From: Escherichia coli O157:H7
Lineage (GTDB): Bacteria; Pseudomonadota; Gammaproteobacteria; Enterobacterales; Enterobacteriaceae
Length of the DNA stretch: 64,000 nt
Assembly (NCBI RefSeq): GCF_013167455.1
Contig: NZ_CP038332.1
Direction: 5' to 3' (one strand)
Positions 57,001 to 60,000 of the stretch are shown piece after piece (the stretch's first letter is position 1; the number at the start of each line of letters is the position of its first letter). The position numbers are program-made.

Positions 57001-60000
57001 TTGCCCATTAACTCAGTTTCAATACGGTGCAGAGCCAGACAGGAAGGAATAATGTCAAGCCCCGGCCAGCAAGTGGGCTTTATTGCATAAGTGACATCGT
57101 CCTTTTCCCCAAGATAGAAAGGCAGGAGAGTGTCTTCTGCATGAATATGAAGATCTGGTACCCATCCGTGATACATTGAGGCTGTTCCCTGGGGGTCGTT
57201 ACCTTCCACGAGCAAAACACGTAGCCCCTTCAGAGCCAGATCCTGAGCAAGATGAACAGAAACTGAGGTTTTGTAAACGCCACCTTTATGGGCAGCAACC
57301 CCGATCACCGGTGGAAATACGTCTTCAGCACGTCGCAATCGCGTACCAAACACATCACGCATATGATTAATTTGTTCAATTGTATAACCAACACGTTGCT
57401 CAACCCGTCCTCGAATTTCCATATCCGGGTGCGGTAGTCGCCCTGCTTTCTCGGCATCTCTGATAGCCTGAGAAGAAACCCCAACTAAATCCGCTGCTTC
57501 ACCTATTCTCCAGCGCCGGGTTATTTTCCTCGCTTCCGGGCTGTCATCATTAAACTGTGCAATGGCGATAGCCTTCGTCATTTCATGACCAGCGTTTATG
57601 CACTGGTTAAGTGTTTCCATGAGTTTCATTCTGAACATCCTTTAATCATTGCTTTGCATTTTTTTATTAAATCTTGCAATTTACTGCAAAGCAACAACAA
57701 AATCGCAAAGTCATCAAAAAACCGCAAAGTTGTTTAAAATAAGAGCAACACTACAAAAGGAGATAAGAAGAGCACATACCTCAGTCACTTATTATCACTA
57801 GCGCTCGCCGCAGCCGTGTAACCGAGCATAGCGAGCGAACTGGCGAGGAAGCAAAGAAGAACTGTTCTGTCAGATAGCTCTTACGCTCAGCGCAAGAAGA
57901 AATATCCACCGTGGGAAAAACTCCAGGTAGAGGTACACACGCGGATAGCCAATTCAGAGTAATAAACTGTGATAATCAACCCTCATCAATGATGACGAAC
58001 TAACCCCCGATATCAGGTCACATGACGAAGGGAAAGAGAAGGAAATCAACTGTGACAAACTGCCCTCAAATTTGGCTTCCTTAAAAATTACAGTTCAAAA
58101 AGTATGAGAAAATCCATGCAGGCTGAAGGAAACAGCAAAACTGTGACAAATTACCCTCAGTAGGTCAGAACAAATGTGACGAACCACCCTCAAATCTGTG
58201 ACAGATAACCCTCAGACTATCCTGTCGTCATGGAAGTGATATCGCGGAAGGAAAATACGATATGAGTCGTCTGGCGGCCTTTCTTTTTCTCAATGTATGA
58301 GAGGCGCATTGGAGTGAACCGCCCCGGAAATCCTGGAGACTAAACTCCCTGAGAAAGAGGTAAACAGGATGACTAAAAATACTCGTTTTTCCCCCGAAGT
58401 CCGTCAGCGGGCGATTCGTATGGTTCTGGAAAGTCAGGATGAATATGACTCACAGTGGGCGGCAATTTGTTCCATTGCCCCAAAGATTGGCTGTACGCCG
58501 GAGACTCTGCGTGTCTGGGTTCGCCAGCATGAGCGGGATACCGGGGGCGGTGATGGTGGGCTCACCAGCGCTGAACGTCAGCGTCTGAAAGAGCTGGAAC
58601 GTGAAAATCGTGAACTGCGCCGCAGTAACGATATCCTTCGCCAGGCTTCCGCTTATTTTGCGAAGGCGGAGTTCGACCGCCTCTGGAAAAAATGATGCCA
58701 CTGCTGGATAAGCTGCGTGAGCAGTACGGGGTCGGACCGGTATGCAGCGAACTGCATATTGCCCCGTCAACGTATTACCATTGTCAGCAACAGCGACATC
58801 ATCCGGATAAACGCAGTGCCCGTGCGCAGCACGACGACTGGCTGAAGAGAGAGATACAGCGCGTATACGATGAAAATCATCAGGTGTACGGTGTGCGTAA
58901 AGTCTGGCGTCAGTTGTTACGGGAAGGAATCAGGGTGGCCAGATGTACAGTGGCACGTCTCATGGCGGTTATGGGACTTGCCGGTGTTCTCCGGGGTAAA
59001 AAGGTCCGTACGACCATCAGCCGGAAAGCCGTTGCCGCAGGCGACCGCGTAAACCGTCAGTTCGTGGCAGAACGACCTGACCAGCTGTGGGTGGCTGATT
59101 TTACTTACGTCAGCACATGGCAGGGCTTCGTCTATGTGGCGTTTATCATTGATGTGTTTGCCGGATACATCGTGGGGTGGCGGGTCTCATCGTCTATGGA
59201 AACGACATTCGTGCTGGATGCGCTGGAGCAGGCGTTGTGGGCCCGTCGTCCGTCTGGCACCATCCATCACAGCGATAAAGGCTCTCAGTATGTGTCACTG
59301 GCCTATACGGAGCGACTAAAAGAAGCCGGATTACTGGCATCAACAGGGAGTACAGGCGACTCGTATGACAACGCGATGGCTGAGAGCATCAATGGTCTTT
59401 ACAAAGCGGAGGTAATACACCGTAAGAGCTGGAAAAACCGTGCAGAAGTGGAACTGGCCACACTAACGTGGGTGGACTGGTATAACAATCGACGATTGCT
59501 GGGAAGGCTGGGCCATACTCCTCCGGCAGAAGCAGAAAAAGCTTATTATGCTTCCATCGGAAACGATGATCTGGCAGCCTGAGTTCACAGATAAAACACT
59601 CTCCAGGAAAACCGGGGCGGTTCAGTGACAATTTTTTAGATTGTCACACTAAATAAAAAAGAGTCAATAAGCAGGGATAACTTTGTGAAAAAACAGCTTC
59701 TTCTGAGGGCAATTTGTCACAACACCTTCTCTAGAACCAGCATGGATAAAGGCCTACAAGGCGCTCTAAAAAAGAAGATCTAAAAACTATAAAAAAATAA
59801 TTATAAAAATATCCCCGTGGATAAGTGGATAACCCCAAGGGAAGTTTTTTCAGGCATCGTGTGTAAGCAGAATATATAAGTGCTGTTCCCTGGTGCTTCC
59901 TCGCTCACTCGAGGGCTTCGCCCTGTCGCTCGACTGCGGCGAGCACTACTGGCTGTAAAAGGACAGACCAAACATCATGGTTCTGTGTTCATTAGGTTGT

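What the first reader, a model, noticed from the sequence alone, without database searches (positions are those of the whole stretch)
57640..59850. RepFIA basic replicon appears gutted: IS629 occupies the position of repE between ori2-like motifs and the incC iterons
Reading toward sopA, the order is DnaA-box-like pair, AT-rich run, one iteron, an operator-like palindrome, then the intact IS629, then five incC-type iterons and sopA. No RepE ORF is present. The plasmid therefore probably replicates from RepFIIA (repA1 at 19527..20396), while sopABC, ccdAB and resD from the FIA region are retained for stability.
Basis: partly seen in the sequence, partly recalled or inferred. Interest (0 to 1): 0.45.

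Follow-up and report, generated by a model that had tools for sequence, protein, structure and literature searches.

The report
Dead RepFIA replicon remnant in pO157
This is the well-known, decayed F-type (RepFIA) replication region of the E. coli O157:H7 virulence plasmid pO157, in which an IS629 insertion followed by a 679-bp IS-adjacent deletion removed nearly all of repE; it is ordinary and already annotated and published.

Summary
Reading leftward from 59832, the order is two DnaA boxes, an AT-rich run, one ori2 iteron, the repE operator palindrome, an intact 1,310-bp IS629 (58315-59624), five incC iterons and sopA. IS629 did not simply replace repE. In canonical pO157, IS629 sits in the operator's right arm, 21 bp upstream of an intact repE, with a 3-bp target duplication. 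The window carries a further 679-bp deletion anchored at the IS left end. Other pO157 plasmids carry deletions of 415, 505, 531 or 533 bp from the same end. In RefSeq complete genomes, 156 have a deleted junction and 92 the undeleted one. ori2 has also collapsed from four iterons to one in the pO157 records examined. The FIA replicon is therefore dead. sopAB and ccdAB are identical in protein sequence to F's. Sakai pO157 already carries a repE remnant feature, RefSeq annotates the pseudogene, and a 2023 paper reports repE loss by IS1203. Already known; low interest.

The parts
55235..55404 (.). sopC centromere, four 43-bp repeats (11 in F by the same scan)
   Evidence: Tandem Repeats Finder; 43-mer counts in the window, F, Sakai and L001
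55492..56463 (-). sopB (ParB-type partition protein), protein identical to F SopB
56463..57629 (-). sopA (partition ATPase), protein identical to F SopA
57968..58215 (+). incC: five 19-bp RepE iterons at 57968-57986, 58051-58069, 58142-58160, 58175-58193 and 58197-58215, matching F's five
   Evidence: iteron scan against the F consensus; 99.85% identity to F over 677 bp
58217..58314 (-). repE 3' remnant: codons 220-251 plus the stop codon, no start codon (pseudogene)
   Evidence: tblastn and translation; RefSeq annotates the same 99 nt as 'replication initiation protein, incomplete, missing N-terminus' in p17B6-1
58315..59624 (+). IS629 (= IS1203, IS3 family), 1,310 bp. Contains orfA 58369-58695, orfB 58692-59582 and the ALIL frameshift pseudoknot 58650-58766. 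It is identical to the copy in canonical pO157. The left target duplication is missing.
59625..59647 (.). repE operator inverted repeat (GTGACAAT N7 ATTGTCAC). IS629 abuts its right arm, as read in repE orientation.
   Evidence: junction comparison with F
59703..59721 (-). The only remaining ori2 (incB) iteron. It is a fusion of F iterons 1 and 4; 76-77 bp carrying three iterons have been lost.
   Evidence: typical F-like plasmids span 76-77 bp more here
59760..59815 (.). ori2 AT-rich region
   Evidence: GC 0.20-0.25
59816..59832 (-). Two overlapping ori2 DnaA boxes (TTATCCACG, TTATCCACT)
60305..61111 (-). resD (tyrosine recombinase, multimer resolution), 3 amino-acid differences from F
61112..61637 (-). 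ccdB (61112-61417) and ccdA (61419-61637), both identical to F at the nucleotide level
19527..20941 (-). Intact RepFIIA replicon control region and initiator: repA 19527-20384, tap 20377-20451, CopA antisense RNA 20469-20557 (+ strand), copB 20687-20941
63625..64000 (+). RepFIB origin-proximal region: DnaA box 63625-63633, 21-bp repeats 63756-63797, RBS GGAGG at 63950, and the rep CTG start at 63959. The gene runs off the window.
   Evidence: CTG start and GGAGG RBS as described in PMC11983097

Best explanation
The region is the decayed RepFIA replicon of an E. coli O157:H7 pO157 plasmid. Three lesions separate it from the F prototype.

1. ori2 collapsed from four 19-bp iterons to one, through loss of 76-77 bp between iterons 1 and 4.
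2. IS629 inserted into the right arm of the repE operator, 21 bp upstream of the ATG, producing a 3-bp target duplication. This cut repE off from its autoregulated promoter.
3. In this sublineage, a 679-bp deletion anchored exactly at the IS629 left end removed the leader and repE codons 1-219.

The third lesion is the kind of IS-adjacent deletion that IS3-family elements make, and that the O157 IS-excision enhancer IEE promotes. The IS stays intact, one target duplication is lost, and the joint has 0-3 bp of homology.

With no initiator and only one origin iteron, FIA cannot fire (inferred). The plasmid replicates from its intact RepFIIA and RepFIB replicons. The neighbouring FIA stability modules sopABC, ccdAB and resD remain intact and presumably functional. 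The order of lesions 1 and 2 is not resolved.
For: Shown here:
- The window is colinear with complete pO157-type plasmid p17B6-1 at 99.96% identity over all 64 kb.
- Canonical pO157 (pTA150) has an intact 756-nt repE, with the IS flanked by a GTG duplication. The window lacks exactly the 679 bp from the IS left end into repE.
- Other pO157 records carry deletions of 415, 505, 531 or 533 bp, all anchored at the same IS end with 0-3 bp of microhomology.
- The identical 679-bp junction occurs in 10 RefSeq complete genomes from different laboratories and countries.
- In RefSeq complete genomes, 156 carry a deleted junction and 92 the undeleted one.
- F has four ori2 iterons. The window, pTA150 and Sakai pO157 each have one.
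- The only RepE-like coding sequence in the window is the 32-residue tail.
- p17B6-1 has no other repE. It has IncFII RepA and a RepFIB initiator.
- pFORC44_2 shows the next step: the IS has been lost from a Sakai-type remnant.

From the literature:
- PMC11983097 calls pO157 an 'FIB-FII plasmid' and shows that its FIB and FII replicons each replicate alone.
- PMC8860574 and PMC9943667 describe IS3/IS629 deletions of variable length adjacent to the IS, with at most 6 bp of homology, promoted by IEE.
Against: - Non-function of the FIA remnant is inferred from sequence and was not tested.
- The biochemical route of the deletion cannot be read from the product. It could be one-ended transposase/IEE cleavage with end joining, or insertion of a second IS copy followed by recombination between the copies.
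- The 531-bp and 533-bp alleles differ by only a TG dinucleotide and may not be independent events.
Confidence: 0.9

Rival explanations
1. One reading: IS629 itself replaced repE in a single event, and RepFIIA is the sole working replicon.
For: In the window alone, the IS sits where repE would be and repA (FII) is intact.
Against: Ninety-two RefSeq complete genomes have the same IS at the same right junction with a complete repE beside it, so insertion and deletion were separate events. The IS lacks one target duplication. A RepFIB replicon starts at 63625-64000, and the pO157 FIB replicon is functional on its own (PMC11983097).
Confidence: 0.05
2. The deletion arose by homologous recombination between two directly oriented IS629 copies, the second having inserted within repE. 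On this view it was not a one-ended transposase/IEE-mediated adjacent deletion.
For: Second IS629 copies do land in this region: pF6667-1 has one inside incC. The product, one intact IS with a new left flank and no matching duplication, is the same under both routes.
Against: The extra copy actually observed is inverted, so it would invert repE rather than delete it. At least four or five different endpoints within ~260 bp would each need a separate prior insertion. IS3-family elements are documented to generate variable adjacent deletions directly (PMC8860574; Kusumoto 2011 as cited in PMC9943667).
Confidence: 0.2
3. The junction is an assembly artefact, caused by collapse or misjoin at a repeated IS629.
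For: IS629 is multicopy in O157 and is a common source of misassembly.
Against: The identical junction appears in 10 complete RefSeq genomes from several countries and laboratories and 11 PLSDB plasmids. The unique sequence on both sides is contiguous and colinear with p17B6-1. The deleted segment is unique sequence, not a repeat.
Confidence: 0.01
4. The remnant still functions as an origin or copy-control element, served in trans by another Rep_3 initiator such as the neighbouring RepFIB Rep.
For: Five incC iterons, one ori2 iteron, the DnaA boxes and the AT-rich region are conserved at 99% or better to F. A Rep_3-family initiator is encoded about 4 kb away.
Against: FIB Rep is only ~23% identical to RepE. 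FIA and FIB are distinct incompatibility groups with different iterons: 19 bp for FIA against 21 bp for FIB here. The high conservation is equally well explained by recent common ancestry.
Confidence: 0.03

Closest known systems
F plasmid RepFIA basic replicon (ori2-repE-incC; NC_002483.1 48.0-49.8 kb)
   Same: Same order and orientation, with 99% or higher nucleotide identity in the retained parts. The DnaA boxes, AT-rich region, operator, five incC iterons, sopAB, ccdAB and resD are all present.
   Different: Three of four ori2 iterons are lost, IS629 sits in the operator arm, and repE is reduced to codons 220-251. sopC has 4 repeats instead of 11 by the same scan.
Canonical pO157 FIA region (e.g. 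pTA150 NZ_CP028595.1; EC4115 and TW14359 pO157)
   Same: Identical IS629 copy at the identical right junction, the same one-iteron ori2, and the same incC and sop region.
   Different: The canonical form keeps the full 251-codon repE and both copies of the 3-bp target duplication. The window has lost 679 bp.
Sakai pO157 (NC_002128.1) repE remnant
   Same: The same kind of IS629-left-end-anchored truncation of repE, carried in the record as 'similar to Rep protein'.
   Different: Sakai lost 531 bp and keeps 246 nt of repE. The window lost 679 bp and keeps 98 nt.
IS3-family / IEE-associated IS-adjacent deletions in E. coli O157 (Ooka 2009 and Kusumoto 2011 as cited in PMC9943667; PMC8860574)
   Same: Variable-length deletions starting exactly at an IS end, with the IS retained and little or no homology at the joint. 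Occasional later IS excision is seen in pFORC44_2.
   Different: No difference in kind. Involvement of IEE at this particular locus is inferred and was not shown.

Membership tests
RepFIA basic replicon (functional) | Intact repE encoding the 251-aa initiator | tested here: not met
   Only residues 220-251 remain (58217-58314). tblastn of F RepE against the whole window gives no other hit.
RepFIA basic replicon (functional) | Four 19-bp iterons in ori2 (incB) | tested here: not met
   One iteron at 59703-59721, against four in F.
RepFIA basic replicon (functional) | DnaA boxes plus AT-rich region at ori2 | tested here: met
   Boxes at 59816-59832. GC is 0.20-0.25 at 59760-59819.
RepFIA basic replicon (functional) | repE promoter/operator contiguous with repE | tested here: not met
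   The operator palindrome is present, but it is separated from the repE remnant by the 1,310-bp IS629.
RepFIA basic replicon (functional) | Five incC iterons downstream of repE | tested here: met
   Five iterons at 57968-58215, matching F's.
RepFIA basic replicon (functional) | Autonomous replication of the cloned segment | not testable with these tools
   This needs a polA-host replication assay.
IS629/IS1203 (IS3 family) | About 1.31 kb with terminal inverted repeats, orfA and orfB, and a -1 frameshift element | tested here: met
   1,310 bp with TGAACCGCCCCGG at both termini. The IS3 transposase model matches. ALIL pseudoknot scores 121.5 bits. RefSeq names the element IS1203.
IS629/IS1203 (IS3 family) | 3-bp direct target duplication flanking a simple insertion | tested here: not met
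   In the window the left flank ends GAG and the right flank starts GTG. Canonical pO157 has GTG on both sides. This is the signature of a later adjacent deletion.
IncFII (RepFIIA) replicon | RepA initiator, CopA antisense RNA, tap leader peptide and CopB | tested here: met
   TIGR03474 at 580.8 bits. RF00042 CopA at 99.1 bits. The tap and copB ORFs are intact.
RepFIB replicon | Rep_3 initiator flanked by iterons, with a DnaA box | tested here: inconclusive
   Only the upstream origin part and the first 14 codons are inside the window. The full 325-aa gene is present in colinear p17B6-1 and starts one base past the window end.
SopABC partition system | SopA ATPase, SopB, and the sopC 43-bp repeat centromere | tested here: met
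   SopA and SopB are identical to F's. sopC has four 43-bp repeats.
CcdAB toxin-antitoxin | Intact ccdA and ccdB | tested here: met
   Zero nucleotide differences from F.

The most novel reading that the evidence does not exclude
The repeated IS629-anchored truncations of repE may not be neutral decay. There are at least four or five distinct endpoints, and deleted junctions make up about 63% of IS-bearing pO157 plasmids among RefSeq complete genomes. Losing residual RepE could be selected for, for example because leaky RepE acting on the retained incC and ori2 iterons interferes with FII/FIB-driven maintenance. In every allele I inspected, the deletion stops short of incC and the sop promoter, which could reflect the partition module being under purifying selection. 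A related idea is that the retained iterons act as a RepE sink that excludes incoming F-type (IncFIA) plasmids.
Probability: 0.12. Interest if true: 0.35.

Novelty: already known. Interest (0 to 1): 0.1.

Why it matters
It matters little beyond bookkeeping. It explains why replicon-typing tools report IncFIA for some pO157 plasmids and not others. It shows that the FIA call on pO157 reflects a remnant rather than a working replicon. The set of IS629-anchored repE deletion alleles could serve as lineage markers within O157:H7. It also illustrates how a multi-replicon F-like plasmid sheds a redundant replicon while keeping the linked partition, addiction and resolution genes.

Tried and rejected
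- I looked for a second repE or RepE-like gene in the window (tblastn) and on a complete colinear plasmid. None was found.
- I considered that the FIB initiator might substitute for RepE. I rejected this on ~23% identity and different iterons.
- I considered an assembly artefact. I rejected it because the same junction recurs in 10 independent complete genomes.
- I tried to read the original pO157 papers and reviews (Burland 1998 as PMC147824, Lim 2010 as PMC3645889, Ooka 2009 as PMC2765283). None is held. What the 1998 papers said about repE therefore rests only on the Sakai record's feature table.
- Apparent 'repE' hits in PMC10758439 and PMC3271280 were only 'repeat' matches.
- I could not obtain a full count of each deletion allele, because the search tool lists at most 60 rows. 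Only the first 40 rows were classified: twenty 415-bp, ten 679-bp, seven 533-bp, two 505-bp and one 531-bp.

Full report
**What is in the sequence.** The finding lies between sopA (56463-57629, - strand) and resD (60305-61111, - strand). An iteron scan with the F consensus TGTGACAAATTGCCCTCAG finds five incC-type iterons at 57968-58215 and a single perfect iteron at 59703-59721. A 1,310-bp element lies at 58315-59624. It has TGAACCGCCCCGG at both termini, orfA and orfB that match the IS3 transposase model, and an ALIL frameshift pseudoknot. RefSeq names it IS1203, which I take to be the same element as IS629. To its right are the operator palindrome GTGACAAT-N7-ATTGTCAC (59625-59647), an AT-rich stretch with GC 0.20-0.25, and two overlapping DnaA boxes at 59816-59832. 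These are true homologues of F, since the flanks align to F ori2 and incC at 99-99.9% identity.

Between the IS and incC there is a 98-nt tail of repE. It encodes residues 220-251 plus the stop codon and is 100% identical to F RepE. This is the only RepE-like coding sequence in the whole 64 kb (tblastn).

**How the locus got this way.** The window is a pO157-type plasmid of E. coli O157:H7. It is colinear over all 64,000 bases, at 99.96% identity, with p17B6-1 (NZ_CP038415.1). The best database matches to the finding interval span 2,890 bp rather than 2,211 bp and carry an annotated, complete repE. In such canonical pO157 plasmids (for example pTA150), the same IS629 sits 21 bp upstream of the repE ATG, inside the right arm of the operator, flanked by a 3-bp duplication (GTG on the + strand, CAC in repE orientation). 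The window has the identical IS and right junction, but its left flank ends in GAG. It lacks exactly the 679 bp running from the IS left end through repE codon 219. So insertion and deletion were two separate events.

**The deletion is one of a series.** Other pO157 records carry deletions of 415 bp (strain 272), 505 bp (2009C-3378), 531 bp (FDAARGOS_293 and the Sakai reference) and 533 bp (SRCC 1675). All are anchored at the same IS end, with 0-3 bp of homology at the joint. The 531-bp and 533-bp alleles differ by only a TG dinucleotide and may not be independent. The exact 679-bp junction occurs in 10 RefSeq complete genomes and 11 PLSDB plasmids. Among RefSeq complete E. coli genomes, 156 have a deleted junction and 92 the undeleted one. 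pFORC44_2 shows a further step, in which the IS has been lost from a Sakai-type remnant (…CGGTACTG|ACAATTTT…).

**Mechanism of the deletion.** This pattern is what IS3-family elements are documented to produce: deletions of varying length directly adjacent to an inverted repeat, with the IS preserved and at most 6 bp of homology (PMC8860574). In O157 such events are promoted by the IS-excision enhancer IEE (PMC9943667, citing Kusumoto 2011). Involvement of IEE at this particular locus is my inference. Recombination between two direct IS copies would give the same product and cannot be excluded.

**A separate lesion in ori2.** F has four iterons at ori2. The window, canonical pO157 and Sakai pO157 each have one, formed by fusing the start of iteron 1 with the end of iteron 4. 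Typical F-like plasmids span 76-77 bp more at this position. A one-iteron ori2 also occurs in an unrelated 161-kb plasmid, pMS1665-1, where the operator-repE junction is uninterrupted. The collapse therefore does not depend on the IS629 insertion. Whether the collapse came before or after the insertion in pO157 is not resolved.

**Function.** The FIA replicon has no initiator, has one of four origin iterons, and has its operator and promoter cut off from the remnant. I conclude it cannot initiate.

**What replicates the plasmid.** RepFIIA is complete: RepA (TIGR03474, 580.8 bits), tap, CopA RNA (RF00042) and CopB. There is a DnaA box at 63625-63633, 21-bp repeats at 63756-63797, a GGAGG ribosome-binding site at 63950 and the CTG start at 63959. 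The annotated rep gene of the colinear plasmid begins one base past the window end. PMC11983097 describes pO157 as an 'FIB-FII plasmid' and shows experimentally that its FIB and FII replicons each sustain replication alone.

**Stability genes.** The FIA-linked stability genes are intact. SopA, SopB, CcdA and CcdB are identical in protein sequence to F's, and ResD differs at 3 residues. sopC is reduced to four 43-bp repeats.

**Comparison with what is known.** None of this is new. The Sakai pO157 reference record carries a 'similar to Rep protein' feature of 246 nt next to IS629. RefSeq annotates the 99-nt remnant of this exact allele as an incomplete replication initiation protein.

**Verdict.** The feature is an already known, ordinary example of IS-driven decay of a redundant replicon, so interest is low. 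The only reading with some novelty is that the recurrent repE truncations are selected rather than neutral, or that the retained iterons serve as an anti-IncFIA sink. Nothing here supports that over neutral decay next to an active IS end.

Noticed in passing
window 63625-64000: A RepFIB origin region (DnaA box, 21-bp repeats, GGAGG RBS, CTG start at 63959) lies at the extreme right edge. The rep gene runs off the window, so a reader of the window alone would miss a third replicon.
   Followed up: yes
window 55235-55404: The sopC centromere has only four 43-bp repeats. The same scan gives 11 in F, 3 in pTA150 and 5 in Sakai pO157, so repeat number is polymorphic among pO157 plasmids.
   Followed up: partly
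L013 (NZ_CP018626.1 pFORC44_2) 2990-3010: A pO157-like plasmid in which IS629 has been lost. The Sakai-type 246-nt repE remnant is joined directly to the operator (…CGGTACTG|ACAATTTT…), consistent with IS excision after the adjacent deletion.
   Followed up: partly
L002 (NZ_CP038368.1 pF6667-1) 3485-4794: An extra IS629 copy is inserted inside incC, in inverted orientation relative to the operator copy, with a GGC target duplication. repE is intact between the two copies.
   Followed up: partly
L012 (NZ_CP097722.1 pMS1665-1) 2818-3236: An unrelated 161-kb avian E. coli plasmid also has a one-iteron ori2. Its operator-repE 5' junction is uninterrupted for 164 nt of repE, with an IS2 annotated just beyond.
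   Followed up: partly
window 12364-13296 (- strand): A second IS3-family copy with its own ALIL pseudoknot (13180-13296). The corresponding feature in p17B6-1 is annotated as a frameshifted, N-terminally truncated IS3 transposase next to espP.
   Followed up: no
L011 (Sakai pO157 NC_002128.1) 36274-37998: Sakai pO157 has a reverse-transcriptase gene between sopB and the DUF1281 gene. It is absent from the window and from p17B6-1.
   Followed up: no
window 22437-22621, 41556-41727, 48876-48977: Rfam gathering-level hits to AS-pc02, the sok antitoxin RNA (hok/sok) and AS-pc01, which are typical F-like plasmid backbone RNAs.
   Followed up: no
L005 (NZ_CP015022.1) 3055-3346: In pSRCC 1675 the IS629 next to the repE remnant is followed immediately by a second, partial IS1203 copy instead of the operator, so this locus has been rearranged further in that plasmid.
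   Followed up: no
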